This document shows positions 2,715-28,238 of a stretch of 64,000 bases of DNA, one piece after another (position 1 is the first letter of the stretch; each line of letters starts with the position of its first letter). The stretch spans positions 496,001-560,000 of the forward strand of contig UYFQ01000005.1 in assembly GCA_900617105.1 (NCBI GenBank). The letters are read 5' to 3'. Position numbers and translations under genes: made by a program. The notes below the pieces were generated by a model. The model made no database searches. It saw nothing but the letters and a program-made list of their open reading frames with translations, and was not told the DNA's origin. The stretch comes from Hydrurus foetidus. Its lineage: Eukaryota.

Positions 2715-2740
2715 CTCTCGCAGCCCGGCAGGGATGCGAT

Positions 2741-6265: not shown

Positions 6266-6327
6266 CGCTGCTGGGATCAGGTTCTCACGGGAGCTTCTGG
6301 CTCAGGGGATTTGTGTATAACGAGATG

Positions 6328-11320: not shown

Positions 11321-14300
11321 GGTGCCTTACATTGTTTTGCTTCCTGTAGGGCAAGACATCTTCCGCACTTGCTGCGTTGCTTCAATCTCCCTTCAATTTG
11401 CTCCCAGTGGCCAGAATCACCGCCTAGAAAACAGGTATCCATAACTAGTAAGCGCGCAACAATGCATTGCTCCATTGCAGCCCCCTTTTGCTGCAGCAGC
11501 GCGCAAGTCATACTTCCGTCTCCTTTGCATGACTCATTTGCCAACGGGTTTTCACAAGCCGCATCCTTGGCTGCCTCAAGCACTGCATGCTGCTCGGCAG
11601 TACACATCCCCGGAGGCTTTGCATTCGGCATGCCCGCAGGTGGCCAATTGAACTGCGCTGGCCAAGGTCTGCTACCGCTAAGCCTGTTCCAAATAGCATC
11701 GAGTAGCGGTGGAAGTTGAGGCACAGGTGCCGCAACCGCGACTTGGGAGACGGCGCCCACGGCAATGCCGCCTGCCAATACCGGACTGATGGTGGCAATC
11801 AAGAGTAGCGCAATGATCGCCGCCGCGAACAGCACAGCCGGAGTAAAGTTCGTCGTATTAGCAGGCTCTGTTGACGGCTGCAATTGACAGTCGCCTGTTT
11901 CTGCCGCACCGCGAAGACTTCCCGAAATAATGTATGCACCAACCCCAGTTTCTGGTCGAATGGCGATGTACGCAGTTCCCTGCCATCCGTTAACATTTTG
12001 CTCACTCTCCGGAATTGTGACTTGAAGTCCCCCAATCAATGCGTTAACAACCTCTTCGCGTACAGCGTTACTCATTTGGATTTGACCCAAGAATTGATCT
12101 ACATTGGCACTGGTAAGCGTAAACACCCTAAGACCTGATTCCATCGCAGTCTGTATCAACCGTACAGCCGATACCGAAGTCCCTGTCTCTCGACCAAATA
12201 CTTGATCGAATGCATCCCCTTCCAAGTAGGAAGTACGCATGCCTTGCTCACGCTGAAAAGTGGCTTGCTCCATCCCTTGAATGCCGATAATGGAATGACC
12301 AATATCCATTGTTCGACCCAAATAACTGGCACTGCGTGGAACTCCCCAGATGTATTGAACCTGTAGACCACTGCTGACCGCGCCGAGTGATGGCATGCGC
12401 TGCACCACTGCGCTCTCGCGACGGGCAATCAAAGATGCGTAGGCATCCACTTGATGCCAGTAACTCATTCCCACAGCATGCAGATTCCCTGACGATGTCG
12501 CGGGAAAGTTCATACTACTCAATTGCTTTGCTGAAATGGAATCGCCAATCACAGCCCAAACAGTTTCGTCGCCTGCGGTTGCAGTGTAAGTTTGCAGAAG
12601 GCCAGTCTGAGCAGTTTGTCCGGCCGGTATGACATTGACCTGCCATTCCACATCTTTGGCCATGCTGACAGTGTCACCAGACACGACCGTAACACCGTCA
12701 ATCTGAAACAGCGGCCTGACCCGTAAGGTATATGCAGGGAATGCAGCCGCCCCGCTGATTCTGTAGCTCGCAATGGATTGCTGGTCAATCGGTGTAGCCC
12801 CCTCATAAGTAATTCCTACCCTGCGTTGCAACAAGTCGGAAAGATTGAACATACGCCGAATCAAGGTATTGCCTGATCCTCCTGTGCCTTCAAGCTCAGA
12901 CCCGTGGAAATCAATTTTCCAGCGTAAACCATCTGGAATTTCGACCGTCTGATTGCCCACCAGGACTGTTGCATACGGCAAAGTTCCGGCTAGCATGGTG
13001 TGGGCCTGACTCCTGATTGTTTGCTTGCCAAGCACATCGTCTACGTTGAAGTTGGCTCCAGTTGTGCTGCTGTCGATGTAAGCTTTGACCTGATTCTGGT
13101 AACTGGTCATCTGGGTTTGCAGAGCCGTTAGGTTCAGATTCTGCGCGTAGTTGGGCGTGAGCGTTGCACCCTGCTGCACAGCTTGAATCAAAGCGTTCCC
13201 ATTCACAGGTACTGCCGTTTTGAGGTTAATCCCCAGTGCATAGTCGTATTGTTTGTAGCTCGCATCCAGTGGCACCCAGGCATTCAGCAGCCCGTTGGGG
13301 TTGACGTGTTGGCTGGTGCTAGCGTTAAGGTTGCCTCGGCTGGGTGTCCAGTTGACGTAAGCGTTGACCCAGACATGTTCCAGCCGGATAGTGGTGATGC
13401 GTCCGGCCTGTGCCAGGCCCATGGCGGCGATGCCACCTTGGTTAAGCAAATTCAATGCGGCTTGCGGAGTAGTCACACCACCGACCCAGTTTTGTACTCG
13501 CTCTGCCGCTATGTCCACGGTGCCGAACTGGTAGCGCGCGGGGATGTTGGCGGCGCGCAGGAGGGCGATCTCCAAGCTGGCAGTGTCAAAGGCGTTGCCT
13601 TTGCGGGCGGTAAGGGTGTAGTCCGCACTTTGGATCGCGCCCCAGGTGGGCAAGTACTGGATGTTGTTTATCACCCAGTTGTGGATGGTGACAGGGTTGT
13701 TGCCGAGTTCTGTGGCTTTGGCTTTGATAACAGGGGTGAGTGCGACTTCGGAGGTTTCAGCCAAGTCGGCGGCATTGGGGGTTTGGCTAGGCTCGGGGGG
13801 GATGCTGAACTGGATGCCGCCGATGGTGGTGTCTGTTTGGGCGAGTTTGACGTGCTGGTCGGCGTACAGGTTCTGGTACCAAGCAGTCTTGGTTTCTGCG
13901 GGCTGGCGGGTGTTGGGCTTAGGGGTACTCCAGGGCAGCTTGCTGGGATCCAGGGGGGGCGAAATTCTGGCTGCGGGGTATTGCTCGAAAAAGTTGTGAA
14001 TGGCGCTGAGGCTGGCTTCATTAGGATTGGCTTTCCAGGAGCGAAGGCGCTGGCGCAGAGTCTGAGCGCGGGTGCTGAGTTCGGTCTCGGTTTGGTCATG
14101 GCGGGCCAGGAGGATGGCGAGGGTATTCGGGTTTAGTTGTTGAGCTGACAGTTGGCTGCGGCTAGCGTGGAATTCGGCCAGCGCTGCATCGGTGTCACTG
14201 TCTATGCTGTCGAACAGGTCTCTGAGCTGTTGCAACTCGATGCTTTGCTGACTGGCGCTCTTAAGGCTCGCAACTTTGGCGCTGGGGGTTTCGGCAGTGG

Positions 14301-14721
14301 CATGCTTGACCAAGGCGCGCACGAGTTCATGGGCACGACTAAGGTTGCGTGCGGTGCGGGTGGTGGCGATCTGGTTGGTGACTGCCGCTGCCCTGATTTG
14401 GGTTAGGTCGGCTTTAGCTCGTTCAAAGCTCTGCGGCCATTGGCTCAGGCGCTGGAGTTGAGTATTAGCTATTAAATTAAGAGCGGACTGCGCTGATGCA
14501 TCTTGCGCCAGTACGCTCAACGGGGCCAGGGCGTTGCACAGCAGCACTGCGGCCAGCACGCGCGCGACCGGGCGCCGCACGGGGTGCCACGGGGTCATCG
14601 TGTTGATGGGCTCATCGGACACCTGAGTTGACGCTCGAAGGGGGTTGTGGGGTTGAAGGGTTTGGCTTGACATAGGTGTGCTCCCGCGCTGCGCTGTTTG
14701 TTGTGGTGTTCGTTGTTTCAC
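11317..14721 (-). CDS. Secreted inactive-transglutaminase polymorphic toxin with Ntox16-like C-terminus (true start possibly ATG at 14598)
   Basis: Signal peptide, GNAFDTASLEIALLRAANIPARY core, GWQGTAYIAIRPETGVGAYII junction, TM helix, C-terminal C..AR....CF.GGD.GH motif. Confidence 0.88.
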   Translation of the reverse strand: MKQRTPQQTAQRGSTPMSSQTLQPHNPLRASTQVSDEPINTMTPWHPVRRPVARVLAAVLLCNALAPLSVLAQDASAQSALNLIANTQLQRLSQWPQSFERAKADLTQIRAAAVTNQIATTRTARNLSRAHELVRALVKHATAETPSAKVASLKSASQQSIELQQLRDLFDSIDSDTDAALAEFHASRSQLSAQQLNPNTLAILLARHDQTETELSTRAQTLRQRLRSWKANPNEASLSAIHNFFEQYPAARISPPLDPSKLPWSTPKPNTRQPAETKTAWYQNLYADQHVKLAQTDTTIGGIQFSIPPEPSQTPNAADLAETSEVALTPVIKAKATELGNNPVTIHNWVINNIQYLPTWGAIQSADYTLTARKGNAFDTASLEIALLRAANIPARYQFGTVDIAAERVQNWVGGVTTPQAALNLLNQGGIAAMGLAQAGRITTIRLEHVWVNAYVNWTPSRGNLNASTSQHVNPNGLLNAWVPLDASYKQYDYALGINLKTAVPVNGNALIQAVQQGATLTPNYAQNLNLTALQTQMTSYQNQVKAYIDSSTTGANFNVDDVLGKQTIRSQAHTMLAGTLPYATVLVGNQTVEIPDGLRWKIDFHGSELEGTGGSGNTLIRRMFNLSDLLQRRVGITYEGATPIDQQSIASYRISGAAAFPAYTLRVRPLFQIDGVTVVSGDTVSMAKDVEWQVNVIPAGQTAQTGLLQTYTATAGDETVWAVIGDSISAKQLSSMNFPATSSGNLHAVGMSYWHQVDAYASLIARRESAVVQRMPSLGAVSSGLQVQYIWGVPRSASYLGRTMDIGHSIIGIQGMEQATFQREQGMRTSYLEGDAFDQVFGRETGTSVSAVRLIQTAMESGLRVFTLTSANVDQFLGQIQMSNAVREEVVNALIGGLQVTIPESEQNVNGWQGTAYIAIRPETGVGAYIISGSLRGAAETGDCQLQPSTEPANTTNFTPAVLFAAAIIALLLIATISPVLAGGIAVGAVSQVAVAAPVPQLPPLLDAIWNRLSGSRPWPAQFNWPPAGMPNAKPPGMCTAEQHAVLEAAKDAACENPLANESCKGDGSMTCALLQQKGAAMEQCIVARLLVMDTCFLGGDSGHWEQIEGRLKQRSKCGRCLALQEAKQCKAP

Positions 14722-16441
14722 TTGTCCACCGTGAAGGTGGTGGTGGCGAGCGTTTGGGCACTCCCGGCGACGGTGGCGATCAGCTCTATCTTGAGCTTGT
14801 TACCGGCTGCGCCCTGCACCACCCAGCTGGCACTGGCCGTGCTGGTTTGCCCGGTGGCGATGTCGGCGCTTTGGTTGATGTCTTGCACCAGTGTTCCCCC
14901 TGTGCTGGTGTTGGTGATGTGCAGTTTGAGCGGGATGGCGGTGGCGCTGGCCCCGGTGTTGCCCACGCTGCGGTTCAGGGCCACGGTGACTCCCGCTTTG
15001 GCGTGGGTGGGGCTGGCGCTGAGGGTGGCGCTGAGCTTGGTGGGGCCGACCAGAAGCTGGAACTGGTCACGGGCGAGCAGTTGGGTGTCGGTGTAGGCCC
15101 AGCTCAGCCCCAGGTTGTAGGCGGCGGTGACGCTGATGTCGATGGTGTCACCCACCTGCCCTGCGGCCACCCAGTTGCTGGTGCGTTGGCTGCTTTGTCC
15201 GCTGGTGAGGGTGAAGGTTTCGGTGGCGGTGAGCACGGTGCTGCCGGTGCGGCGGTTGACCCAGTTGGTGGTCACAGGCAAGGCGGTGAAGCTGCCGATG
15301 CCATTGGCGGCGAGGGTGCAGTTGTTGGTGAGGTTGCGGCTGCCCACCAGGCTGCTGCCGAGCTGGACTTGGCGGGTGCTTTGGCTGTTGACGCTGACAT
15401 CCACGCTGGTGGCCAAACAAGCCCGCTGCTGGCAGAGTTGGCGGGCCGCAGCTTGCTCGGCCCAGGCCAGGGCTTGCAGTGCTTGGCTGGTGTCGGTGTT
15501 GGCGCTGGCGATGCCACGCAGGTAGTTGGCGGCGACGAGGTATTCCACCAGGCCTTCTGCGTAGCGGCCTTGGGTGGTGAATTGTTTGCCCAAATCGGCT
15601 TGGTAGCTGGCGTTGCTGAGGGCGGTGGTGTCGGCACTGCCTGTGGGCTTGAGGGCGACCAAGGCTGCGCTGGCGTTGCCGATGAGGGTTGCGACGCTGC
15701 TGAGGGTGAAGCTGTGGGTGACGGTTTGGCTCACTGCGGTGGCCCCTGGGGCGCTGGCCTGCACTTGCACCGGTACGCTGTAGCTGCCGGCTTGCCCGCT
15801 GCTGACTTGCAAGATGAGGTTGCTGGTTTGGCCGGGTTGCAGGCTGATGGCCCAGTTCACCAGGGTGCTGCCGTTGGCTTGTGGGCTGATGTCGGCCGCA
15901 CTGGCGACACTGGGTTGCGACGCCAACAGGTTCACGCCTGCGGGCAACAGTGCTTGCACGTTGAGGCTGGCGACTTGGCTGCCGGTGTTAGCGAGCGCGG
16001 TGCTGAGGGTTTGCGGCGCACCGGGAACGGGGCTGTTGCCAGGGGCGATGCCTGCCGGGGTGGTGGCTGTGGTGGTGCTGTTGATGACGGCATTGGGTGT
16101 CGCCAAGTAGGCCAAGCTGCGCACCACGGTGTCGGCCAGCAGGCTGTCGTTGGCGGCGTTGGGTTGGGCCATGAGGGTGGCGAGGTCAAACGCGAAGGTC
16201 AGCGCGTGGCCGGTGCCCAGGGTTTTGCTGATGATGGCGGGGATGCCTCCGGCGAACATGGCTTGAACGGTGCCGCCGCTGGTGACGCTGTTCGCACCTG
16301 TGCTCAAGCTGAAGCGGGTGGGGGTGCCCAGGGTTTTGAGGCCAGCAGCGGGGTACAGGCTGCCTCCCAAGCTGGCGATGCTGTTGGCGGGCAAGGCGGC
16401 GGTTTGTTGCACCACGCCCATGTAGGGGTGCAGGTACATGG
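14501..16441. repeat. ~1.94-kb direct repeat, copy 2 (3' part of the giant gene plus toxin signal-peptide region)
   Basis: Near-identical to 20459-22399 at offset 5958; visible differences only near the edges. Confidence 0.95.
14718..16441 (-). pseudogene. Duplicated C-terminal ~574 codons of the giant protein
   Basis: Protein matches the end of 20676-28238 from MYLHPYMGVV; no signal peptide. Confidence 0.88.
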
Positions 16442-16605
16442 CGGATGTGGATGCCTGCGGCTCGCAGGAGGGCGATGAGCCGACGAACTGTGCCACGTCG
16501 ATAACAAGACTTTCCGCCCGCCCGCCCCAGGCGAATAACGCCATATACGCAGGCAGTACCGCTACTTATAGCTATCGAATTAGAAGTACCCACGTTATGA
16601 CACAC

Positions 16606-17250
16606 TCAAAGTGAGGTCATCGAAAAAGAAACTTCAATACTGCCATGCATCAATCCAGAGAAATGCTCAAAAATAAATGGGTTTTCATCAGGTGGATCTA
16701 CAGAAAAATCAAGTAAATCAGCCCCTATTGACAATAAAGACTTAGCCCCAGCACCAATTTGAAGAGTTCCAGTCACCCATGGCGGTGCATCAGAAATTTT
16801 CGCAAAAGTACTTTCTTGAAATCCAAATCCAAAATAAGGCAAATCCCAATGCGATATATTATCTTTAACATTATAGCTATTTAAATTTTTTTTATATTTA
16901 ATTTCATTAACAATAAAATTGTTTAAAAAAATACAATCTATAGGTCTATTTATGTAAATTGAATTTATTTTAGATTTTGAATTTTTTAATTTAATCCAAA
17001 TAGCTTCTCCTGGCCCGGATATTGCAACAATAGAAATTATTGCAGCCAATTTTATTAATTCATTTTTTGAAATGAAAATGTTAAATCTATTTCTTCCAAA
17101 TTCAGTCCATGCTGATTTTGTGTTAATATGATCAACATCAGCAATCAAAGAAGTAGATTCATTCAATAATATTACATCTTTACTGGAAAAAGTTGCTTCG
17201 CCTAATTTAGCATCATCACAAATAACGGAAAGTGATTTATTTGTTTTCAT
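16606..17250 (-). CDS. Very AT-rich putative immunity protein (214 aa)
   Basis: Starts 3 bp after the toxin stop; strong compositional contrast; no recognised family. Confidence 0.72.
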   Translation of the reverse strand: MKTNKSLSVICDDAKLGEATFSSKDVILLNESTSLIADVDHINTKSAWTEFGRNRFNIFISKNELIKLAAIISIVAISGPGEAIWIKLKNSKSKINSIYINRPIDCIFLNNFIVNEIKYKKNLNSYNVKDNISHWDLPYFGFGFQESTFAKISDAPPWVTGTLQIGAGAKSLLSIGADLLDFSVDPPDENPFIFEHFSGLMHGSIEVSFSMTSL

Positions 17251-17253
17251 AAA

Positions 17254-20200
17254 TTAATTACTAAAAGCTCCACCCGCATTAATAACCCAATCTACCCTAT
17301 ATCCATCACGCCCAGAAAAATTAGGTTTTGGATAGCTACCACCATCTGGCGCGCAAAGCCCAGAAGGACTTACACTCATAATATAATTCTCAAGCTTTAA
17401 AAACCAAGGCTCTCTTAGGGTTAAAGCTTTGTTATTGTAAAGACCTACTTGCGCTTTCAAAATTGAAACCAAACCCAATGCTTCTGATTTAGTTAGTGGC
17501 GTTGCCTGGGCCCAATTTACCGATATTGTCCATTGATTTGGTAGACGTTTCTTTTGTGATGGCATATCTGATCCTTGCGCTTGAAAACTTCCTCTATGGC
17601 ATTTATCGCTTGGACATGGACTTGAACTAGCCGCGTTTGCTTTAAATGTTAAAAATGTCATCCCTATCGCAGTCATTACCTGAAAAATGGCAGGCGATAA
17701 AACTGGAACAACTGTAGCAGAAGCCGCCAACCCTGCCTCTGCTATTAACAACATGGCTAGTCGGATGACCATTTGCGTGAGTATTCGCTGTGAAATTGAC
17801 TGAACCAAAGGCTGTGTTTTAGGTTCGCATAGCACCAATTCACTACCATTACTGCCATCGATAATATAGGCACCAGCACCCGTAATAGGATCTGTAGCAA
17901 TATACGCCTGCCCTGTCCAACCAGAAAATTTAACTACATCTTCAGGAGCCAAAACAACCAAACCACTTGTGACCGCATCACCAATTTGTTGGCGCATGGC
18001 ATAAGAAATTTCTGTCGCACCAAGGTAATTTTCTAAATTATCCTTATCAATTTTCCATATTGCAACTCCAACACTACTCGCCGCTGAAATAACACTAACA
18101 GCAGATATGCCATTACCAGGGGCCAAACCCAGCAGTTCTTCAAATATCCGCCCCTCCAGAAAGGAGTTTTTGATGCCGATGCGCTTCATGTATTCCACCG
18201 TCGCACCGGGGTCGCTCATGCCTGTCACGGCTGAGATCATGCGCCTTATGTCTACGGCGTAGCTGCTGTATTGCCCTTGGCGTGGGATGCCCCACGAGTA
18301 CTGTACGGTTAAGGGGCTGGTGAACAGGCCTACTGAGGGGAGTCGGTAGGCTTGTACGTTGGCGGTTTTAGCCATCATGGCGTCGGATACGTTGGCGCGT
18401 GACCAGTAGCCCAGGGCCATGTGGTGCAGGTTTTCCAGTGCGGTGTCGGGGTTGACTTGGGCTGCCCTGTTGGCTACGTCGTCCAGGCTGAGACCGCTGG
18501 CATCTACGCCGAAAACGATGGCATCACCGACTGCGCTTTCTCGTTTGAAGTCTTCTTCTATGGGCCCAAAGTTGGGGCCTTGGAGGATGTAGTTCCACCA
18601 TTGGGTGTCGCCCATGCGTTGGGCGGGGACTTCGGCGAGCAAGGTGTCGTCGAGTTTGAATTGGAGTTTTTGGCGGATCAGGTACAGCGGTAAGGCGCTG
18701 GCGTTGTTGGTGACGTACAGGTCTATGACTTGCTGGTCTGCGGGGGTGGCGGCTACGTAGGTGGCGGCCAAGCGCTTGTTGCCTATTTGCGAGAGCCGCA
18801 GGCTTTGCGTCATGCTGGGGGTGTCTGTGGCTTTGTCGTTGTCTGAGGCGTAGAGCTTGAAGCTGATTTTCCAGCGCAGGGTGTCGGGTATTTGCTGGGT
18901 TTCGTTGCCTGCCATGGTGATGGGGTAGGGCAAGGTGCCGGGCAGCAGGCTGAAGTTTTGAGGGCGTATGGTTTGTCGCCCGGTGATGTCTGCTGTGGTG
19001 GCGTTTGCACCTACGGTGGCGGTGACGTAGGTTTGCAGGCGGGTTTGGTAGTCGGTAAATTGGGTTTGCAAATTGGCTTGGTTCAGCCCTTGCACGGTGT
19101 TGGCTGTGACGGTGGCGCCATCTTGCACGGCTGCTTGCAAGGCGTTGGCATCCATAGGGACTGCCGCTGGTAAATCTAAGCCTGGGGTGTAGTCGTACTG
19201 TTTGTAGCTGGCATCCAGGGGTGTCCATGCGTTGAGCAGGCCGTTGGGGTTGACGTGCTGGGTGGCATTGGCGTTTTTGTTGCCTCGGCTGGGTGTCCAG
19301 TTGACGTAGGCGTTGACCCAGACATGCTCCATGCGGATGGCTGTGATGTGCCCGGCTTGTGCCACGCCTATGGCGGCGATGCCGCCTTGGTTTAGCAAGT
19401 TCAGTGCGGCTTGCGGTGTGGTGACTCCGCCTAACCAGTTTTGTACGCGCTCTGCGGCTATGTCTACGGTGCCAAACTGGTAACGCGCGGGGATGCCTGC
19501 GGCTCGCAAGAGGGCAATCTCTAGGCTGGCGGTATCAAAGGCGTTGCCTCTGCGAGCGGTGAGTGTGTAGTCGGCACTTTGGATTGCGCCCCAGGTGGGC
19601 AGGTATTGGACGTTGTTTCTCACCCAGTTATGGATGGTGACGGGGTTGTTACCGAGTTCTGTGGCTTTGGCTTGGAGGGCGGGGGTGAGCTGGGTTTCGT
19701 CGCTGGTGCTCAGGTCTGCGGCGGTGGGCGCTTGGGTGGGTTCGGGGGGAATGTTGAATTGGATACCACCAATGGTGGTGCCTGTCGTGGCTTGGGCGAG
19801 TCGTATTTTTTGGTCTGCGTAGAGGTTTTGAAACCACGCCGTTTTGGTTTGCGCGGGGGTGCGTTGGTTGGGCTTGGCACTGCCCCACGGGAGTTGGTTG
19901 TGGTCGGTGGGGACGTGTGTTTTACCGGCCCCGGCTCCGGGGTACTGGGCCATGTGCAGGGCCAGGGCGTAGGTATTGGTGTCTGTGGGGTTGGCGGCTG
20001 CGGTGGCTGCGAGTTGGCTGAATTGGCTGGCTTTGGCGCTGAGTTGCTGCTGGGCCGCATCATGACGGGTGAGCAGTTCGCTCACTGTTTGGGCAGACAG
20101 TTCGCCTTTTCTTCCGATCTCTTGCAGTTGCGCTCGGGCTGCATGCATCTCATCGGTGATGGTGCTTTGGGCGCTTTGGGTGTCGTAGAGCAGGCCGCGT

Positions 20201-20679
20201 AGGGTGGTTTTAAGGTCTGTGGCTCTTTGCGGGGTCAGGGTGGTTTGCGCGGATGTTTGCGGAGCTGCTGTACGTGACAAGGCGGCAGATGGGGGTTGCC
20301 GGACTGTCACGCTGGGCTTGGATGCTTCGGGGTGCAGGGTCTTGAGGAGGTCTGCGATCCGCTCTATGCGGCGCTGGGCCACTTCAGTATCGCTGGGCAC
20401 TAGGCTCGTTGTTTGTGGGATGGCTGCGGTGCTTTGGGTTGTTGTGCTTTTAGGATTCTCTTGCGCCAACACGCTCAAGGGGGCCAGGGCGTTGCACAGC
20501 AGCACTGCGGCCAGCACGCGCGCGACCGGGCGCCGCACGGGGTGCCACGGGGTCATCGTGTTGATGGGCTCATCGGACACCTGAGTTGACGCTCGAAGGG
20601 GGTTGTGGGGTTGAAGGGTTTGGCTTGACATAGGTGTGCTCCCGCGCTGCGCTGTTTGTTGTGGTGTTCGTTGTTTCAC
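17254..20679 (-). CDS. Secreted inactive-transglutaminase polymorphic toxin with an unassigned C-terminal domain (true start possibly ATG at 20556)
   Basis: Same signal peptide and core motifs (GNAFDTASL, EHVWV, WTPLDAS); GWTGQAYIATDPITGAGAYII junction; AT-rich tip HRGSFQAQG...RVDWVINAGGAFSN. Confidence 0.88.
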   Translation of the reverse strand: MKQRTPQQTAQRGSTPMSSQTLQPHNPLRASTQVSDEPINTMTPWHPVRRPVARVLAAVLLCNALAPLSVLAQENPKSTTTQSTAAIPQTTSLVPSDTEVAQRRIERIADLLKTLHPEASKPSVTVRQPPSAALSRTAAPQTSAQTTLTPQRATDLKTTLRGLLYDTQSAQSTITDEMHAARAQLQEIGRKGELSAQTVSELLTRHDAAQQQLSAKASQFSQLAATAAANPTDTNTYALALHMAQYPGAGAGKTHVPTDHNQLPWGSAKPNQRTPAQTKTAWFQNLYADQKIRLAQATTGTTIGGIQFNIPPEPTQAPTAADLSTSDETQLTPALQAKATELGNNPVTIHNWVRNNVQYLPTWGAIQSADYTLTARRGNAFDTASLEIALLRAAGIPARYQFGTVDIAAERVQNWLGGVTTPQAALNLLNQGGIAAIGVAQAGHITAIRMEHVWVNAYVNWTPSRGNKNANATQHVNPNGLLNAWTPLDASYKQYDYTPGLDLPAAVPMDANALQAAVQDGATVTANTVQGLNQANLQTQFTDYQTRLQTYVTATVGANATTADITGRQTIRPQNFSLLPGTLPYPITMAGNETQQIPDTLRWKISFKLYASDNDKATDTPSMTQSLRLSQIGNKRLAATYVAATPADQQVIDLYVTNNASALPLYLIRQKLQFKLDDTLLAEVPAQRMGDTQWWNYILQGPNFGPIEEDFKRESAVGDAIVFGVDASGLSLDDVANRAAQVNPDTALENLHHMALGYWSRANVSDAMMAKTANVQAYRLPSVGLFTSPLTVQYSWGIPRQGQYSSYAVDIRRMISAVTGMSDPGATVEYMKRIGIKNSFLEGRIFEELLGLAPGNGISAVSVISAASSVGVAIWKIDKDNLENYLGATEISYAMRQQIGDAVTSGLVVLAPEDVVKFSGWTGQAYIATDPITGAGAYIIDGSNGSELVLCEPKTQPLVQSISQRILTQMVIRLAMLLIAEAGLAASATVVPVLSPAIFQVMTAIGMTFLTFKANAASSSPCPSDKCHRGSFQAQGSDMPSQKKRLPNQWTISVNWAQATPLTKSEALGLVSILKAQVGLYNNKALTLREPWFLKLENYIMSVSPSGLCAPDGGSYPKPNFSGRDGYRVDWVINAGGAFSN

Positions 20680-22399
20680 TTGTCCACCGTGAAGGTGGTG
20701 GTGGCGAGCGTTTGGGCACTCCCGGCGACGGTGGCGATCAGCTCTATCTTGAGCTTGTTACCGGCTGCGCCCTGCACCACCCAGCTGGCACTGGCCGTGC
20801 TGGTTTGCCCGGTGGCGATGTCGGCGCTTTGGTTGATGTCTTGCACCAGTGTTCCCCCTGTGCTGGTGTTGGTGATGTGCAGTTTGAGCGGGATGGCGGT
20901 GGCGCTGGCCCCGGTGTTGCCCACGCTGCGGTTCAGGGCCACGGTGACTCCCGCTTTGGCGTGGGTGGGGCTGGCGCTGAGGGTGGCGCTGAGCTTGGTG
21001 GGGCCGACCAGAAGCTGGAACTGGTCACGGGCGAGCAGTTGGGTGTCGGTGTAGGCCCAGCTCAGCCCCAGGTTGTAGGCGGCGGTGACGCTGATGTCGA
21101 TGGTGTCACCCACCTGCCCTGCGGCCACCCAGTTGCTGGTGCGTTGGCTGCTTTGTCCGCTGGTGAGGGTGAAGGTTTCGGTGGCGGTGAGCACGGTGCT
21201 GCCGGTGCGGCGGTTGACCCAGTTGGTGGTCACAGGCAAGGCGGTGAAGCTGCCGATGCCATTGGCGGCGAGGGTGCAGTTGTTGGTGAGGTTGCGGCTG
21301 CCCACCAGGCTGCTGCCGAGCTGGACTTGGCGGGTGCTTTGGCTGTTGACGCTGACATCCACGCTGGTGGCCAAACAAGCCCGCTGCTGGCAGAGTTGGC
21401 GGGCCGCAGCTTGCTCGGCCCAGGCCAGGGCTTGCAGTGCTTGGCTGGTGTCGGTGTTGGCGCTGGCGATGCCACGCAGGTAGTTGGCGGCGACGAGGTA
21501 TTCCACCAGGCCTTCTGCGTAGCGGCCTTGGGTGGTGAATTGTTTGCCCAAATCGGCTTGGTAGCTGGCGTTGCTGAGGGCGGTGGTGTCGGCACTGCCT
21601 GTGGGCTTGAGGGCGACCAAGGCTGCGCTGGCGTTGCCGATGAGGGTTGCGACGCTGCTGAGGGTGAAGCTGTGGGTGACGGTTTGGCTCACTGCGGTGG
21701 CCCCTGGGGCGCTGGCCTGCACTTGCACCGGTACGCTGTAGCTGCCGGCTTGCCCGCTGCTGACTTGCAAGATGAGGTTGCTGGTTTGGCCGGGTTGCAG
21801 GCTGATGGCCCAGTTCACCAGGGTGCTGCCGTTGGCTTGTGGGCTGATGTCGGCCGCACTGGCGACACTGGGTTGCGACGCCAACAGGTTCACGCCTGCG
21901 GGCAACAGTGCTTGCACGTTGAGGCTGGCGACTTGGCTGCCGGTGTTAGCGAGCGCGGTGCTGAGGGTTTGCGGCGCACCGGGAACGGGGCTGTTGCCAG
22001 GGGCGATGCCTGCCGGGGTGGTGGCTGTGGTGGTGCTGTTGATGACGGCATTGGGTGTCGCCAAGTAGGCCAAGCTGCGCACCACGGTGTCGGCCAGCAG
22101 GCTGTCGTTGGCGGCGTTGGGTTGGGCCATGAGGGTGGCGAGGTCAAACGCGAAGGTCAGCGCGTGGCCGGTGCCCAGGGTTTTGCTGATGATGGCGGGG
22201 ATGCCTCCGGCGAACATGGCTTGAACGGTGCCGCCGCTGGTGACGCTGTTCGCACCTGTGCTCAAGCTGAAGCGGGTGGGGGTGCCCAAGGTTTTAAGTC
22301 CGGCGGCGGGGTACAGGCTGCCACTCAAGCTGGCGATGCTGTTGGAGGGCAAGGCGGCGGTTTGTTGCACCACGCCCATGTAGGGGTGCAGGTACATGG
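20459..22399. repeat. ~1.94-kb direct repeat, copy 1
   Basis: Matches 14501-16441. Confidence 0.95.
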
Positions 22400-25300
22400 G
22401 CTCTAGCCATTCGGGGGTGCCGTCTACGACGATGCCTGCCCCGCGCTGCGCGGCTTCTCGCATTTCTTTGGGGTCGTACACGGTGAACTTGAGCGAGGCT
22501 CCGCCGCTCACCCAAAAGATGTTGTAGTTGCCGCAGCGCAGCTCTTGGCGGAACTCTGCGGCGCTGGTGACGACTTTGGCGGGAACCGCTAACTGGGCGA
22601 AGTAGTTGCGCAGGGCTTGCGCTTTGGTTTCATCGCAGGCGGGGCTTTGGTTGGCACCGTCATCGCTGTAAATGCAGCTGACCAGCATGAGCACGCGGGG
22701 GTTGCTGGTGGTGCTGATTTGGGTCGTGATTTGCACAGGCGGGGTGGCCGGGGCCGTCACGCTGAAGCTGGTGGTGGCCAACAAGGTGGTGCTGGCCGTG
22801 GCGGTGCCAGTGGTCGTGGTGCTGGCACTCAAGCTGGCGGTATAGCGGCTGCCCGCAGGGCCGGGGGGTGTCCAGCTTTGGTTGCTGCTGAAACTGCCAT
22901 TGGCCGACAAACTGGCAGGCACGGCCCACTGGGCCGCGACGGTGCTGGTGCCCGCTGGGGAAACAGCCAGCGTGGCGGTGGTAGCCACAGCTTGGCTGTT
23001 GGGGTTGCTCAGACGGTAGAGCAGTTGCACAGCAGCGCCGCTTGCCACCGCGCTGGGGCTGGCGGACAGGGTGCCTGTCAAGGGCTGAAGAGGAACCACT
23101 GGCGCACCGCGCAAGGTGAAGGGCGCTTGGGCCAGGGGAAGTTCGTTGCTTGTGGGCAACTGCACGGTGGCTGTGGCGATCAAAGCCAAGCCATCGGTGC
23201 CAGCAGCAGGCCAATTCCAGCTCAAGCTTTGTGAAGCTCCCACGGGCCATGCGGCAACGGTTTGGGTGAAGGTGCCGAGTACCGCGCCTGTGGCGGGGTT
23301 GAGCACGCGCACACGCACCGTAGCGTTGCTGACGGTGGCATTGCCGCTGTTGGTGGCGGTCAATTGCAGGGTCAAGTTTTGCCCGACTGTCACGGGGTTG
23401 GGGCTGGCTTGCAATTGACCGAGCAGGCCGATACCGGTTTGGTCACTGCCGATCACGCTGAATGCGGCGCTGCCCTGGGCCACAGTAGCACCTTGGGCGT
23501 TGCGCACCACAAACTGCGCTTGGTAAGTGCCAGGGCTCAGGGTGTTGGCGGCGAGGCTGTAGCTGAAGCTGCGTTGCCCTTGGGCGGCGAGTTGAGCGAG
23601 GCTTTCGACCTTGCTGAACACCACTGCACCAGTGCTGTTGGTGACAGTGGTCGTCGCGCTGAGGTTGTCTTGCGGGGTGTTGGTGGTCAGGTTGGTTGCG
23701 AGCGAAGTCACTTGCACGGTTTGCGCTGCTGTATAGCTCACACGGTCGGTACGAATGTTGCCGCTCAGGGCCGCGCTTTGGCTGGCTTGCACAGTGAAGT
23801 TGGCTGTGGCAGTGCCGTAAACAATACCTGCGGGGGTAATGAGTTCAGCCTTGATTTGGTAAGCACCAGCCAATACACCAGAAGTCGCCCAAAGGGCGGT
23901 GGCTTGCCCGCTGACACCCGACGCTACGTTGAAGCTCACACCCAGAGGTAAGGCATCAACCGTCTTTCCGGTGGAATCCAACACGGTAAACCGCACCAAA
24001 GGATCACGGGCAAAGCTGCCTGCATTGGTGACAGTGGCGGTGAAGGTGGCTTGCTCGGCTTCGGTGTAAGTGGGTTTGCTCGTGGCGACGGCGAGACCAA
24101 GATTGACCGCTATAGCTGACACATCGGCCACCAGCAGGTTGTTGCTGCGGTCAAAGTCAGCGATGCTGGTTTTACCGGTGCCATCGTCATCGGCGACGAT
24201 CCACAGTGTGCCGTTAGGTATCGCCACATTCAAGCCGCCTGGAAGTGCGAATGTGATGTCTCTATAGTCACCGGGTGCTATGACTTGTTCAAGTAGAGCG
24301 GTACCCAGCAAAACTGAAGACCGTGGTGCACTGCTGTTGGGATTGGCGTTGTAAAAAGCAATTTTTGTTGCAGCAGGTATTTTGTCGGAACCACCATTAC
24401 CAAGGCGAATGGTAAGGACGGAACCCACTGAACTTTGATCGGCTATTCGCAGATAGGACACGGTCAAATCAGGTACCGCACGAGGATCTGCGTCGAGACG
24501 CTTATTAAGACGAAAGGTGTTTTGGGCTTTCCAATTTGGAATTTGAATTTTTGGAACTGTCAAATCATCATTGATATTGGTAATGCTGTAGTCGTATTGA
24601 TTCCACAGACTGCGAGTAGAAACCCAGGCATTGTTGATGTCTTGATATACATAAATCCCATGTTGAGCGCCGCCAAAAGTACCGTCACCTGGAACGATCA
24701 AATTTGCATGACCATCACCACTTGCATCCACAACCAAAGGGTATTCAGCACCAGTGGATGAACTGCTTGTTTTTTCAAACAGCACAGCGCCTGTGGCACC
24801 GTCATACACCCGCAACTTATCTTGATCGCGGTAAATTACCTCCACTTTTCCATCACCATCAAAGTCAAATGCGGTTGAGCCAGTATTGGCAGACCCATCT
24901 TTGATTGGCGAGATCCACGCTACGGATCCATCAGAACGGATGACGGTGTAATTCCATATGCTTGCCACACCGATATCAGGCAAGCCATCACCATCAAAAT
25001 CAGCGATCGTTGCCGCCCCCCCTGCACCACCATCAGCCAACGAAACGGGCCCCCAAATCGTCTGCCCCTCATTGCTGACCAACCACACTTGGCCATGTGC
25101 AACCTGCACCAACTCAGGCACACCATCGTTATTAAAGTCAGCGAAAGGCATAGACCAAAGAGACGAACTGTCTGGGCCACGCCACATGAATGTGCCATTG
25201 CTTGCGAAAACAGCAGGGCCACAAATAATTTGCAACCCAGGCATGGTTTGAGAAATTTTTGCAGCATTAGATGCATCTTCCGGATAACACCGTCCTGAAG

Positions 25301-28238
25301 TACTCAAATCATGCAATAGAACACCTGTTGCAGAGTAAATGTAAGAGCCCAGCAAAATTTCTGGCGATCCATCTTCATCAATATCTGCGACTGATACCCA
25401 ATGAGCAAGAGGGCCATTCGCCTGCCATTTAACCTGTCCAGTGGGTGTCATCACTACAGGGCCACCGTTGTGTTTCACCGCAATGATTTCAGGAATACCA
25501 TCTTTGTCTAAATCAGCAAGTGCCAAACCTGTTTGGGTATGAACACCACCAAACACTGAAGGGGGCACCCGCAAGACCTCTTGCCCAGTCTTACCATCTA
25601 TGGCAACAAGCGATGCAGGCGCAAAATAATTTGAGCCATCGTAGGCTGAAAAAATAATGCGCGGCGTATCAGCTTCATCAATTTTCCCATCCCCATTGGT
25701 ATCGTGAATGCGCCCAACTACTGGGGACATCATGACTTGCCCAGCTGTCCAAGCGAATTTGAGCACAGGTTCAAATGCAGATCGAAGCGGTATGACGAGG
25801 GCATCCTGACCACTTGAGTGAGTGTTGTTGGCCTCATTCGCCTCCAGCACCTGCTGGTTTGCATCCACCATCACATGAATGGGGGCATCCCTAAAGTCAC
25901 GCTGCCCTGCAACAGAAACAGATACTGTGGTCGTCTGGTTTGGTGCGAGCGAACTGGTCAGCACAGCTTGCCCCAAGACCGTATCGCTGATGGCATCAAA
26001 CTGGCCATTCCGGTTGACATCGACGAAAGCAACTAAGCCAACATTGGCAGGAGCAAGCTGCTTGCCAATGTTCGCGACCTGCACACTCACTGCCCCCGTA
26101 AGTTTCAATGTCTGTGGATCAGTGAAAGCCGTAGCACGCTGAACAGCGACAACGGTCAAGTCTGGCAATAAAACATCAACCTTGGGTGGACGCAATCGAA
26201 TTTGACCTACATCCAGCGTTTGTAAAGGTGCAATTGCATATTGCAAAGCGGTACGTTGATAGCCACTGGCCATTGCTTCAACTTGAACATTTGCACCATC
26301 TATTCCACCTTGACTAAAGCGTCCACTGCTTCCCGTTTGTACGGTTAGCACCGAACCATTCTTGAGCGAAATCGTCAGTGTTGCCCCAGTTATGGGCTGA
26401 TTGGTACCCGCATCCAACACAACACCACTCAACATGCCCATATTGGCATTAAGCGGGGTTTGATTGGCAGCGTAGAGCTTGGGCGAGAAGTCCAGCGCGG
26501 TAGCACGCAAATTACTGCACAACACTTGCGTATTCGCTTGCACCGTATCGAAGCCTGCCATGCTGGCCGTCATAACTACAGCGCCACTGACCAAGCCGCT
26601 GATTTGGTAGTGACCTGTAGCGTCCGTCGTTGTGCTCGCGGTGTTCGCACCCGAGACCACAATACCAACACCAGCAATAGGTTGCTGGCTTGAGGCAGAG
26701 AAGACAGTTCCTTGTAATAAACACGCATTGCTGCTGGCTACGCCCGAAGCCAAGGATGGCGAAAAGTTGGCAACCTGCCCTGCTTGCACGGCAACATTGC
26801 CTGTGGCGCTTAAGTAACCAGCTTTGCTGGCTGTTAGGTTGAGGTTACCAACCGTGACATTGGCAATCAGGTAGCTGCCATCCCCAGCAGTCACTGCGCT
26901 GAGATTTTGGCCCTCGATCATGATCGTGACACCTGCTAGCGGTGCATTGCTGCTTGATGTTCTGGCAATCCCATTGACTGTGGCGGTGCTGATGTTGGAC
27001 TGCACCAGCATTTGTACAACGCCAACATCCGTCACTTGACCGGCGGTTAACACCAAACTCAACTTGAGCGTGCTGTAGCCTGTTGCGACAGCCTGGATTT
27101 GGTAGGCACCAGGGCTGACCCCCTGCATAGAGACCCCGCCAGCGCTATCACTGGTTGCGCCAAGGACGCCAGCACCCGTACCACTGAAAAGCACACCTGG
27201 AATCGCTGTACCTGTACGTGCATCAACAAACTTGAGCTTAAGACCAGATTGATTGGGGTTAAGTGGAATTTGCCCAGTCAAGGCCAGCGCACGCAAAGCT
27301 ACGGCAGTTACGTAAGCATCCCCCTGCCATGACCCATCCGCTATTTGCTGACCCAGAAGAAAACTACCCACATCACTGGCAACAGTCGCATTTTGACCAC
27401 CGTAGGGATGCACAGACTCATACGCAATAGCGGTGACTGCCACATCAGACAACCAATTGCCTTGTGCATTGCGCTGGGCCAGCAAATACCCTGCGGCCTT
27501 GCTGGCAATGGCTGCAGCGGTGGCGTTACTGGCTGCGCTATCTTGTAAACCACGCAACACGGTGGCGGTACTTACCGTGTCGCTGATACCAGCAGTTGTA
27601 AAGCTGCCATCAGCCTTCTGGGCTGTTTGCAACCAAGCCAAGAGTCGAGATTGTTCGGGTGCGCTAAGGCTCGTTAATTCCGTTGCCAATGCAGAACCCG
27701 TGTCCAGCGCATTTGAAATACCAAAACCTTCGTAGGCAGCATAGCCACCATCGCCGCCACGGCGTGGACTGACATCATTCAGTAACGACAAGCCAAGTTG
27801 CTGTTGAAGATACTTTTGACATGCCACCGTTTGGGTCGCACTGTCTGCGGTGTTTTGCAAAGCGGCAACCAAAGCCGCTACGGGGCTGCTGTTACCTGCC
27901 AGTTTGAGCAATGTTTTAGCGGTTTCGCAACGGGCTTGCTGAGGCGATGCAACCGCAGAGGGCGTTGCAAGTTGCCCATTGGATTGAACTTGGGACTGGA
28001 GCCATGCCAAACCTCGGCTCAGGTCAGCAGGCGCACCGGACACATACGCCATAGCGAACATGGCAAGGGTGAAAAGCAAGAGATTGCGAACATTTCGCCC
28101 AACAGACCTGACTTGCGCCAAGAAATACCGTGCGATGTGTGCCGTGCGTACCGCTGACGAATGCGAAAAACGTGCGCAAGCACTTTGTACTTTACCAACC
28201 TGCATATGGCCTCCCGACCCATTGCCAGCCTTTGACAA
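20676..28238 (-). CDS. Giant secreted multidomain protein: QW alpha/alpha-barrel repeats, ~4 carboxypeptidase-regulatory-like repeats, CARDB, FG-GAP/VCBS propeller, Ig-like repeats (start uncertain)
   Basis: Hydrophobic leader LLLFTLAMFAMAYVSG-A; WLQTAQKADGSF, YLLAQRNAQGNW, FLLGQQIADGSW; repeated G.V....T..PI.G..I......T...G.Y....ASK.GY; LPDLTV...EANEANN; DLDKDGIPEI, DIDEDGSPEI, DFNNDGVPEL, DFDGDGLPDI, DFDGDGKVEV. Confidence 0.88.
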   Translation of the reverse strand: MSKAGNGSGGHMQVGKVQSACARFSHSSAVRTAHIARYFLAQVRSVGRNVRNLLLFTLAMFAMAYVSGAPADLSRGLAWLQSQVQSNGQLATPSAVASPQQARCETAKTLLKLAGNSSPVAALVAALQNTADSATQTVACQKYLQQQLGLSLLNDVSPRRGGDGGYAAYEGFGISNALDTGSALATELTSLSAPEQSRLLAWLQTAQKADGSFTTAGISDTVSTATVLRGLQDSAASNATAAAIASKAAGYLLAQRNAQGNWLSDVAVTAIAYESVHPYGGQNATVASDVGSFLLGQQIADGSWQGDAYVTAVALRALALTGQIPLNPNQSGLKLKFVDARTGTAIPGVLFSGTGAGVLGATSDSAGGVSMQGVSPGAYQIQAVATGYSTLKLSLVLTAGQVTDVGVVQMLVQSNISTATVNGIARTSSSNAPLAGVTIMIEGQNLSAVTAGDGSYLIANVTVGNLNLTASKAGYLSATGNVAVQAGQVANFSPSLASGVASSNACLLQGTVFSASSQQPIAGVGIVVSGANTASTTTDATGHYQISGLVSGAVVMTASMAGFDTVQANTQVLCSNLRATALDFSPKLYAANQTPLNANMGMLSGVVLDAGTNQPITGATLTISLKNGSVLTVQTGSSGRFSQGGIDGANVQVEAMASGYQRTALQYAIAPLQTLDVGQIRLRPPKVDVLLPDLTVVAVQRATAFTDPQTLKLTGAVSVQVANIGKQLAPANVGLVAFVDVNRNGQFDAISDTVLGQAVLTSSLAPNQTTTVSVSVAGQRDFRDAPIHVMVDANQQVLEANEANNTHSSGQDALVIPLRSAFEPVLKFAWTAGQVMMSPVVGRIHDTNGDGKIDEADTPRIIFSAYDGSNYFAPASLVAIDGKTGQEVLRVPPSVFGGVHTQTGLALADLDKDGIPEIIAVKHNGGPVVMTPTGQVKWQANGPLAHWVSVADIDEDGSPEILLGSYIYSATGVLLHDLSTSGRCYPEDASNAAKISQTMPGLQIICGPAVFASNGTFMWRGPDSSSLWSMPFADFNNDGVPELVQVAHGQVWLVSNEGQTIWGPVSLADGGAGGAATIADFDGDGLPDIGVASIWNYTVIRSDGSVAWISPIKDGSANTGSTAFDFDGDGKVEVIYRDQDKLRVYDGATGAVLFEKTSSSSTGAEYPLVVDASGDGHANLIVPGDGTFGGAQHGIYVYQDINNAWVSTRSLWNQYDYSITNINDDLTVPKIQIPNWKAQNTFRLNKRLDADPRAVPDLTVSYLRIADQSSVGSVLTIRLGNGGSDKIPAATKIAFYNANPNSSAPRSSVLLGTALLEQVIAPGDYRDITFALPGGLNVAIPNGTLWIVADDDGTGKTSIADFDRSNNLLVADVSAIAVNLGLAVATSKPTYTEAEQATFTATVTNAGSFARDPLVRFTVLDSTGKTVDALPLGVSFNVASGVSGQATALWATSGVLAGAYQIKAELITPAGIVYGTATANFTVQASQSAALSGNIRTDRVSYTAAQTVQVTSLATNLTTNTPQDNLSATTTVTNSTGAVVFSKVESLAQLAAQGQRSFSYSLAANTLSPGTYQAQFVVRNAQGATVAQGSAAFSVIGSDQTGIGLLGQLQASPNPVTVGQNLTLQLTATNSGNATVSNATVRVRVLNPATGAVLGTFTQTVAAWPVGASQSLSWNWPAAGTDGLALIATATVQLPTSNELPLAQAPFTLRGAPVVPLQPLTGTLSASPSAVASGAAVQLLYRLSNPNSQAVATTATLAVSPAGTSTVAAQWAVPASLSANGSFSSNQSWTPPGPAGSRYTASLSASTTTTGTATASTTLLATTSFSVTAPATPPVQITTQISTTSNPRVLMLVSCIYSDDGANQSPACDETKAQALRNYFAQLAVPAKVVTSAAEFRQELRCGNYNIFWVSGGASLKFTVYDPKEMREAAQRGAGIVVDGTPEWLEPMYLHPYMGVVQQTAALPSNSIASLSGSLYPAAGLKTLGTPTRFSLSTGANSVTSGGTVQAMFAGGIPAIISKTLGTGHALTFAFDLATLMAQPNAANDSLLADTVVRSLAYLATPNAVINSTTTATTPAGIAPGNSPVPGAPQTLSTALANTGSQVASLNVQALLPAGVNLLASQPSVASAADISPQANGSTLVNWAISLQPGQTSNLILQVSSGQAGSYSVPVQVQASAPGATAVSQTVTHSFTLSSVATLIGNASAALVALKPTGSADTTALSNASYQADLGKQFTTQGRYAEGLVEYLVAANYLRGIASANTDTSQALQALAWAEQAAARQLCQQRACLATSVDVSVNSQSTRQVQLGSSLVGSRNLTNNCTLAANGIGSFTALPVTTNWVNRRTGSTVLTATETFTLTSGQSSQRTSNWVAAGQVGDTIDISVTAAYNLGLSWAYTDTQLLARDQFQLLVGPTKLSATLSASPTHAKAGVTVALNRSVGNTGASATAIPLKLHITNTSTGGTLVQDINQSADIATGQTSTASASWVVQGAAGNKLKIELIATVAGSAQTLATTTFTVDK

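What the first reader, a model, noticed from the sequence alone, without database searches (positions are those of the whole stretch)
16606..17640. Unassigned toxin tip (HRGSFQAQG...RVDWVINAGGAF) with an unrecognised immunity gene
Seen: after a hydrophobic stretch, the first toxin ends in a ~120-aa AT-rich domain starting SSSPCPSDKCHRGSFQAQG, followed 3 bp later by a very AT-rich 214-aa ORF. I cannot assign either to a named family. Inference: a cytoplasm-acting enzymatic toxin (possibly a nuclease) with its cognate antidote, occupying the primary position.
Basis: partly seen in the sequence, partly recalled or inferred. Interest (0 to 1): 0.7.

Follow-up and report, generated by a model that had tools for sequence, protein, structure and literature searches.

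The report
Unnamed widespread toxin tip with antidote
A large bacterial protein, predicted to be exported, ends in a small domain from a widespread family that has no Pfam or NCBIfam name and sits at the tip of many different toxin carriers; it is likely a poison for rival bacteria, probably one that cuts RNA, and the gene right behind it is likely its antidote.

Summary
Observation confirmed. ORF 17254-20679(-) (1141 aa: signal-like helix, transglutaminase-like domain lacking its Cys, hydrophobic linker) ends in a 120-aa tip (GC 0.41 vs 0.59); a 214-aa ORF (GC 0.29) follows 3 bp later. Neither has a Pfam/NCBIfam family. The tip is no orphan: it is a divergent member (E 1.4e-13) of a family of 508 clusters at 50% identity, (H)RGRxQxQG..S..W..R..RxDxE..G.AF. 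The domain is C-terminal in 146 of 150 representatives, on Rhs, SpvB-Rhs, eCIS, HINT and transglutaminase carriers, and often free-standing before a small partner gene. Paralogous carriers in the window end differently (one in Ntox16), so this is a polymorphic toxin. All near-invariant polar residues are kept except a co-varying Arg/Glu pair, lost together also in relatives. Basic tips, acidic partners without signal peptides and a single invariant Asp point to a cytoplasmic, metal-independent RNase-like enzyme (about 50%, untested). The family uses at least three unrelated partner families; the 214-aa protein resembles only weakly those of its nearest relatives, so immunity rests on position. 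Identity with Ntox13 or PT5 could not be tested. New member of a known kind.

The parts
17254..20679 (-). Polymorphic toxin gene, 1141 aa from GTG (likely start M42 at 20556); no RHS repeats detected
   Evidence: 36-60% identical over parts of residues 1-1015 to 10 of 150 family representatives
20461..20556 (-). Predicted Sec-type signal peptide (residues 42-73: basic n-region, hydrophobic core, ends VLA-Q)
   Evidence: hydropathy peak 1.97 at residues 51-73; same segment starts the paralogues; judged by pattern, no signal-peptide predictor was run
19213..19680 (-). Transglutaminase-like domain with the catalytic Cys position replaced (GNAFD, A380); H452 and D489 kept
   Evidence: PF01841 E 3e-14, residues 334-460; motifs located; the Cys assignment follows the recalled GxCxD consensus
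17656..17784 (-). Hydrophobic linker, residues 966-1008, one or two predicted membrane-crossing helices before the tip
   Evidence: similar stretches in all carrier relatives printed
17254..17616 (-). Toxin tip, residues 1022-1141; near-invariant R1029, Q1033, Q1035, S1053, W1056, R1089, R1128, D1130; H1028 less conserved; S1031 and V1132 replace the family's Arg and Glu; C1027 and C1109 a possible disulfide
   Evidence: model pLDDT 87.9, order beta-beta-alpha-alpha-beta-beta-beta
16606..17250 (-). 214-aa putative immunity protein, pI 5.8, no N-terminal signal, one mildly hydrophobic internal stretch (58-86)
   Evidence: weak colinear likeness (24-28% in alignment) to the 216-239-aa genes behind the closest tips
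16606..18050 (.). AT-rich exchanged block: last ~260 codons of the toxin plus the immunity gene
   Evidence: GC steps; one relative's contig follows the carrier to 18116 and then departs (single low-depth contig)
20459..22399 (.). Copy 1 of a 1941-bp direct repeat: 3' end of the 2520-aa gene plus the first ~73 codons of the carrier
   Evidence: 99.4%; 11 mismatches, spacing 5958 bp
14501..16441 (.). Copy 2 of the repeat, in front of the second carrier; the two copies bracket this toxin-immunity pair
20676..28238 (-). 2520-aa predicted surface protein (carboxypeptidase-regulatory-like, CARDB, FG-GAP, MG2-like), directly upstream
11317..14721 (-). Paralogous carrier (48% over residues 1-957) with an Ntox16 tip, followed by a 209-aa ORF, an orphan Ntox16 (10162-10446) and a DUF6714 gene (9570-10169)

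Best explanation
The 1141-aa protein is a polymorphic-toxin carrier whose exchangeable 120-aa tip is likely an antibacterial poison that probably cuts RNA inside the target cell, and the 214-aa gene behind it likely encodes the binding antidote. Shown: gene layout, composition break, family membership, range of carriers, conservation pattern. Inferred: Sec export through residues 42-73; display or anchoring through the Cys-less transglutaminase domain, perhaps with the 2520-aa upstream protein; membrane crossing through the 966-1008 helices; catalysis by R1029/Q1033/Q1035/S1053/R1128/D1130 (they alternate along predicted strands, so they would share one sheet face) with R1089 and H1028; metal-independent chemistry, since only one acidic residue is invariant. 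Odds: toxin tip 0.9; 214-aa protein its cognate immunity 0.8; RNA as target about 0.5.
For: Family: 508 clusters at E<=0.001; the window tip scores E 1.4e-13 against a profile of 150 representatives built without it (those were gathered with a profile that held it). C-terminal in 146 of 150. Of 50 longer proteins scanned: 9 Rhs-type (one with SpvB), 5 eCIS core, 3 PT-HINT, 4 transglutaminase, 29 without a family; also on annotated Rhs in Cupriavidus pMOL28 and Lysinibacillus. Window paralogue ends in Ntox16, E 3.5e-11. Of 82 motif ORFs in 80 metagenome loci, 65 are followed closely by one of three gene families (59, 3, 3) and one more joins the second family by profile; 9 had no downstream ORF called, 7 others (loci are redundant and motif-seeded). 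Tips basic: pI>8 in 141 of 150; downstream proteins acidic: pI<7 in 63 of 76, and 1 of 76 with an N-terminal hydrophobic segment. R1128 150/150, Q1033, Q1035, R1089, D1130 148/150, S1053 145/150, R1029 142/150, all kept here. The Arg/Glu pair co-varies (133 both, 7 neither, 7 and 1 single; Fisher p 1e-7, not corrected for kinship), which reads as a cross-strand salt bridge and not as a dead active site. The tip falls in a 21-row clade (SH-aLRT 96, quick tree) with all 15 other transglutaminase-type tips.
Against: No activity data for any family member were found. The RNase call rests on charge, residue types and the prior that most polymorphic tips are nucleases (PMC3482391 section 29). The 214-aa protein has no detected homologue; its likeness to the L008-L010 partners is not significant (hhalign E 0.036, probability 1.4%; 98 of 2000 shuffles score as high) and it does not match the two commoner partner families. 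The window tip has a long end branch (0.87) and lacks a Glu kept in 142 of 150. PT9, a validated tip of similar kind, showed no nuclease activity (PMC13675652), so 'basic tip equals nuclease' can fail. How a Sec-exported protein reaches a target cytoplasm is not shown.
Confidence: 0.55

Rival explanations
1. Toxin-immunity pair as above, but the tip attacks DNA (nuclease or DNA-binding poison) instead of RNA.
For: Same basic-tip, acidic-partner pattern; PT1 and PT7 of Nachmias et al. have new topologies, positive surfaces and are DNases (10.1101/2021.10.19.465003, passages).
Against: Only one invariant acidic residue (D1130) and a His kept in 117 of 150 are few for a metal site; the Glu is dispensable in 8 of 148 aligned representatives.
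Confidence: 0.13
2. The tip is a small-molecule or group-transfer enzyme, for example an NAD-consuming or ADP-ribosylating toxin using the HRG...S...E pattern.
For: An Arg after His on strand 1, a Ser on strand 2 and a late DxE recall the R-S-E ADP-ribosyltransferase signature (recalled, not from a call).
Against: The late Glu is Val here and co-varies with a neighbouring Arg; no Pfam ART family hit for 18 members scanned.
Confidence: 0.12
3. The family is a toxin family, but this divergent allele is weak or inactive, and the 214-aa ORF is a retained or unrelated immunity gene.
For: R to S and E to V at positions kept in 134 and 142 of 150; long end branch; the locus is riddled with IS elements and truncated paralogues.
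Against: 7 representatives lose both residues, 5 of them transglutaminase-type, including the 12-member Comamonas cluster of P0107; all other invariant residues are kept; both frames are open; the independent contig differs only silently.
Confidence: 0.12
4. The tip is non-enzymatic: a protein-binding inhibitor, or a recognition tag in a kin-discrimination system, with the next gene as its receptor.
For: Two invariant Gln and a Ser, few classical catalytic residues; the paralogue at 571-2826 has no enzyme-like tip before the IS.
Against: Shuffling across Rhs, eCIS, HINT and SpvB carriers is the pattern of toxin domains; three invariant Arg and an Asp suit catalysis.
Confidence: 0.08

Closest known systems
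Polymorphic toxin systems with an inactive N-terminal transglutaminase (Zhang et al. 2012, PMC3482391, section 19 passage)
   Same: Signal or TM segment, catalytically incomplete transglutaminase-like domain, variable C-terminal toxin, adjacent immunity gene, orphan cassettes, default Sec/T2SS export
   Different: The paper says RHS repeats always follow the transglutaminase; here none is detected and ~500 aa without a family take their place; full-length paralogues, not only orphan tips, are arrayed behind a large CARDB/FG-GAP gene
Ntox13 (PMC3482391, Table 2 row only)
   Same: beta/alpha domain, listed among predicted metal-independent RNases, on RHS and transglutaminase carriers of Firmicutes and beta-proteobacteria, all of which fits this family
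   Different: Its stated hallmark KxxxxxxE holds in only 36 of 142 and not in the window; no Imm59 hit among partners; its alignment was not readable, so identity stays open
PT5 and PT9 of Nachmias et al. (10.1101/2021.10.19.465003; PMC13675652)
   Same: Short tips on several carrier types that also occur as single-domain genes; PT5 is reported from Cyanobacteria, Proteobacteria and Cupriavidus, PT9 from Cyanobacteria, Bacteroidetes and Proteobacteria
   Different: PT9 depends on K54 and appears smaller (61 C-alpha compared plus 25 unmodelled); this family has no invariant Lys. The PT5 sequence could not be seen
BECR-fold and other metal-independent RNase tips (RelE, colicin D/E5, Ntox21)
   Same: About 100 aa, alpha+beta, basic, polar and basic residues predicted on a sheet face, shared between polymorphic toxins and free-standing two-gene pairs
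   Different: Predicted order is hairpin, two long helices, three strands, not an N-terminal helix before a four-strand meander; no Pfam hit
Imm32 (PF15566)
   Same: One of the six 216-239-aa partners of the nearest tips gives a weak Imm32 hit (E 0.029, 14.7 bits, cut-off 27)
   Different: The window's 214-aa protein gives none, and its link to those partners is itself not significant

Membership tests
Polymorphic toxin system | Conserved N-terminal carrier with a variable C-terminal domain | tested here: met
   Window paralogues 41-48% identical over the carrier with different ends, one Ntox16
Polymorphic toxin system | Same tip on unrelated trafficking carriers | tested here: met
   Rhs, SpvB-Rhs, eCIS core, PT-HINT, transglutaminase
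Polymorphic toxin system | Tightly linked downstream gene in the same low-GC block | tested here: met
   3-bp gap, GC 0.29; 65 of 82 motif ORFs have one of three partner families close behind
Polymorphic toxin system | Toxicity of the tip and rescue by the downstream gene | not testable with these tools
   needs bench assay
Inactive-transglutaminase toxins (Zhang 2012) | Transglutaminase domain lacking one of C, H, D after a signal or TM segment | tested here: met
   GNAFD in place of GxCxD; H452 and D489 kept
Inactive-transglutaminase toxins (Zhang 2012) | RHS repeat array after the transglutaminase | tested here: not met
   No RHS family in the window carriers at E<=1 nor in the four full or long relatives
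Ntox13 | KxxxxxxE motif | tested here: inconclusive
   K seven before the conserved E in 36 of 142; which E the authors meant is unknown
Ntox13 | Imm59 as neighbour | tested here: inconclusive
Ntox13 | Profile match to the authors' alignment | not testable with these tools
   supplement holds only an index page
PT5 / PT9 (Nachmias) | Sequence match to the validated representative | not testable with these tools
BECR-fold RNase | Helix followed by four-strand meander | tested here: inconclusive
   Predicted element order differs; fold searches
R-S-E ADP-ribosyltransferase | Catalytic Glu on a late strand | tested here: not met
   V1132 in the window; Glu in 142 of 150 relatives co-varies with an Arg
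R-S-E ADP-ribosyltransferase | Split-sheet ART fold | tested here: inconclusive
Imm32 | PF15566 above the curated cut-off | tested here: not met
   0 hits for the window protein; 1 of 6 putative relatives at 14.7 bits against a cut-off of 27

The most novel reading that the evidence does not exclude
The tip defines an undescribed toxin family with its own fold and an Arg/Gln/Ser/Asp active site. It serves both as the warhead of at least five secretion carriers and as the toxin of common free-standing two-gene modules, is neutralised by at least three unrelated antidote families, and here rides on an Rhs-free, Sec-exported transglutaminase carrier whose whole toxin-immunity unit can be switched out by recombination between 1.94-kb repeats.
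Probability: 0.35. Interest if true: 0.7.

Novelty: new member of a known kind. Interest (0 to 1): 0.5.

Why it matters
A family of 500 or more clusters that spans Rhs, eCIS, HINT, SpvB and transglutaminase carriers and free-standing pairs, yet has no Pfam, NCBIfam or PADLOC model, is a ready target: a 100-120-aa domain, a confident model, a short list of invariant residues and natural antidotes. Its activity would add a chemistry to the antibacterial toxin repertoire and annotate many Rhs ends and hypothetical two-gene operons. The Rhs-free transglutaminase carrier raises a separate question: how a Sec-exported protein delivers cytoplasm-acting tips. The system class itself is well known, which caps the surprise.

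Tried and rejected
Fold searches: with the confident model, Foldseek gave no match at E<=0.001 in PDB or BFVD, and VIA-align gave no Z>=5 among 48,161 chains (best Z 3.9, rmsd 2.8, 68 aligned); this shows neither that the fold is new nor that any family is excluded. The single-sequence model (pLDDT 52) and its search were discarded. PDB sequence searches with the tip, a homologue and two family profiles found nothing below E 0.26; the immunity alignment gave only ribosomal S7 at E 0.06, taken as chance. Complex prediction of tip plus 214-aa protein: no verdict (score 0.00, alignments not used, partner fold uncertain). Word-seeded homologue searches found nothing for the tip or the 214-aa protein; plasmid and phage tblastn nothing real; viral contigs nothing. 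ESM Atlas: phage minor-tail-like hits for the tip (0.92-0.93, recognition below the mark) were rejected once the true family was found; the 214-aa protein gave only unnamed hits at 0.75-0.77. L002 was a chance match. PADLOC: 0 of 10 proteins. My by-eye alignment of the 214-aa protein to the L008-L010 partners did not reach significance. Literature: family motifs in 0 relevant papers (one unrelated hit), in 0 supplement files of PMC12994826 and PMC13483458; carrier terms 0 papers; Ntox13 2 papers listed. Earlier scan findings: nothing relevant. No RNA holder listed. No whole genome is held, so secretion genes elsewhere and relatives' genomes could not be searched. The careful tree did not finish; the quick tree was used. 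Residue numbers printed (covariation list) are 3 too low; one search gives the right ones.
Full report
Observation. A 214-aa ORF starts 3 bp after its stop. GC is 0.59 over carrier residues 1-879, 0.43 over 880-1016, 0.41 over the tip and 0.29 over the small ORF, so the foreign block begins near 18050-18100. One relative's contig follows the carrier to 18116 and then departs (single low-depth contig). Neither the tip nor the small ORF hits Pfam or NCBIfam at E<=1.

Carrier and locus. The protein has a signal-like segment at 42-73, a transglutaminase-like domain (PF01841, E 3e-14) with GNAFD where the catalytic Cys is expected, no RHS family, and a hydrophobic stretch at 966-1008. Three paralogues lie downstream. 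11317-14721 is full length, 48% identical over the carrier and ends in Ntox16 (E 3.5e-11), followed by a 209-aa ORF, an orphan Ntox16 and a DUF6714 gene; 6434-9454 and 571-2826 are cut by insertion sequences. Upstream is a 2520-aa CARDB/FG-GAP/carboxypeptidase-regulatory-like gene. Its last 1.7 kb plus the start of the carrier occur twice, 1941 bp, 11 mismatches, 5958 bp apart, bracketing exactly this toxin and its small ORF. Recombination between the copies would put the Ntox16 carrier directly behind the large gene; this is inference and was not checked against reads. Zhang et al. 2012 (PMC3482391; I saw passages, section 29 and an index-only supplement) describe inactive-transglutaminase toxins as always followed by RHS repeats; this carrier is an Rhs-free form. 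In plasmids, 10 of 11 hits covered under half of the query, starting at its transglutaminase end, and 6 of those are annotated as RHS proteins.

The tip's family. A genome scan gave one real relative, a free-standing 113-aa Cylindrospermum protein (33%). A two-sequence profile found 508 clusters at E<=0.001 among 1.84 billion representatives. The window tip scores E 1.4e-13 against a profile of the best 150 built without it. The domain lies within 25 aa of the C-terminus in 146 of 150; 88 have at most 40 aa before it, 62 are longer. Of 50 longer proteins scanned, 9 carry Rhs-type families (one with SpvB), 5 eCIS core, 3 PT-HINT, 4 transglutaminase, and 29 none. Named holders include Rhs proteins of Cupriavidus pMOL28, Lysinibacillus and Pseudomonas lundensis, a Leptolyngbya eCIS protein and transglutaminase carriers of Comamonas and Ramlibacter. 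Ten of the 150 match the window's carrier at 36-60%. In a quick tree of 154 rows the tip lies in a 21-row clade (SH-aLRT 96) holding all 15 other transglutaminase-type tips; 113 columns are few, and many forks are open.

Conservation. Of 150: R1128 150, G1136 150, Q1033, Q1035, R1089 and D1130 148, W1056 and A1138 146, S1053 145, R1029 142, H1028 117; all are kept in the window. Two positions differ: S1031 (family Arg, 134) and V1132 (family Glu, 142). They co-vary: 133 both, 7 neither, 7 Glu only, 1 Arg only (Fisher p 1e-7, kinship not corrected); 5 of the 7 double losses are transglutaminase-type, including the 12-member Comamonas cluster. I read this as a dispensable salt bridge between strands 1 and 4. 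An independent 224-nt contig carries the same S1031 with two silent differences. CHRG plus a later G-x-C occurs in 9 of 10 transglutaminase-type tips (8 from the BLAST list, 2 fragments assigned by eye) and 3 of 140 others: a likely disulfide, which fits passage through the periplasm.

Model. With 57 sequences AlphaFold2 gives pLDDT 87.9, pTM 0.82: strands 1028-1036 and 1050-1058, helices 1064-1081 and 1083-1102, strands 1112-1116, 1128-1135 and 1137-1140. Fold-search outcomes are given under Tried and rejected.

The partner gene. In 80 metagenome loci (motif-seeded, partly redundant; the best 80 of 107) there are 82 motif ORFs: 55 free-standing, 17 Rhs, 4 transglutaminase-type, 6 other. Behind them lie a 95-290-aa family, mostly with a DGNP word (59), a ~70-aa domain family (3, plus L011 by profile, E 3.8e-9, and the Cupriavidus and Cylindrospermum partners), and a 216-218-aa family (3); 9 had no downstream ORF called and 7 fall outside these families. 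The 216-218-aa genes follow the three tips that score best against the window tip (L008-L010; the L010 tip is identical to that of carrier P0094, 60% to the window carrier), and occur in arrays of 3 and 2 paralogues at L008 and L009. The window's 214-aa protein has the same size and aligns end to end at 24-28%, but not significantly: hhalign E 0.036, 98 of 2000 shuffles as good, pairwise z 0.6-3.5. It does not match the other two families. Its role as immunity protein therefore rests on position, composition, lack of a signal and the family-wide layout.

Mechanism. Tips are basic (pI>8 in 141 of 150; 9.3 here), downstream proteins acidic (pI<7 in 63 of 76; 5.8 here) and nearly all lack an N-terminal hydrophobic segment. 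With free-standing members that have no export signal, this places the target in the cytoplasm and suggests a polyanion. One invariant Asp and an exchangeable His are too few for a usual metal site, while three Arg, two Gln and a Ser suit phosphate binding and 2'-OH attack. I put RNA cleavage at about 0.5, DNA 0.13, NAD or transfer chemistry 0.12, an inactive allele 0.12, non-enzymatic 0.08. PT9, a validated tip, showed no nuclease activity (PMC13675652, passages), a warning against over-reading charge.

Known names. Ntox13 fits by carriers, lineages and class, but its stated motif holds in 36 of 142 and Imm59 was not seen; the alignment was unreadable. PT5 of Nachmias et al. (10.1101/2021.10.19.465003; sections 5, 8, 9, 11 and passages seen, supplements closed) fits by distribution only. 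PT9 needs K54 and looks smaller. The PolyProf preprint (one passage) adds no sequence. Motif searches of full texts and of two supplement sets found nothing; unseen supplements may hold the family.

Verdict. A real polymorphic toxin-immunity pair by all genomic criteria that could be tested. The tip is a divergent member of a large family without a public model, on an Rhs-free carrier variant; activity and antidote function are untested. New member of a known kind; interest 0.5.

Noticed in passing
window 14501-16441 and 20459-22399: 1941-bp direct repeat with 11 mismatches, all near the two ends; it brackets one toxin-immunity unit and could act as a whole-gene toxin switch, or be a recent duplication or an assembly artefact.
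   Followed up: partly
window 16442-16600 (-): Between the 214-aa gene and the repeat lies a short relic of another carrier's transglutaminase motif (LIALLRAAGI), out of frame with ORF 14718-16544, which is itself only the copied 3' end of the large gene.
   Followed up: partly
window 20676-28238 (-): 2520-aa protein with a weak squalene-cyclase-like helical N-terminal region (E 0.02-0.04), Ig-like repeats, an FG-GAP propeller and an MG2-like hit (E 6.6e-6); a possible scaffold or adhesin for the toxins. Linkage in other genomes not tested.
   Followed up: no
window 9570-11320 (-): Both Ntox16 tips are followed by DUF6714-like genes (E 7.6e-8 and 0.066); the Zhang 2012 table lists no immunity for Ntox16, so DUF6714 is a candidate.
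   Followed up: no
window 1-611, 3569-4968, 4934-6265, 6327-6484, 49599-50930: Transposase genes and fragments (one 1332-bp element in two identical copies, another in several pieces) cut two carriers at their 3' ends; IS family names not tested.
   Followed up: no
L001:5980-7094, L031, L065, L083: In free-standing pairs the partner domain is sometimes fused to a further domain (about 250-290 aa in all), as in type II toxin-antitoxin systems.
   Followed up: no
L012, L029, L037, L041, L058, L059, L067, L085: A group of free-standing family members carries a C-terminal hydrophobic tail of about 15 residues right after the GxAF motif.
   Followed up: no
L004:3660-5908, L006:3609-5860: On enterobacterial plasmids the free-standing pair lies behind an FRG-domain gene and before DGQHR/DndB genes, a defence-island-like setting; PADLOC has no model for it.
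   Followed up: partly
L008:376-2486, L009:401-1782: Arrays of three and two paralogous putative immunity genes behind the nearest tips, a sign of rivalry among variants of this toxin.
   Followed up: partly
L011:2689-6284: Another transglutaminase-carrier locus with truncated carriers ending in purely hydrophobic tails followed by small membrane proteins, like window 571-2826; possibly pore-forming tips.
   Followed up: no
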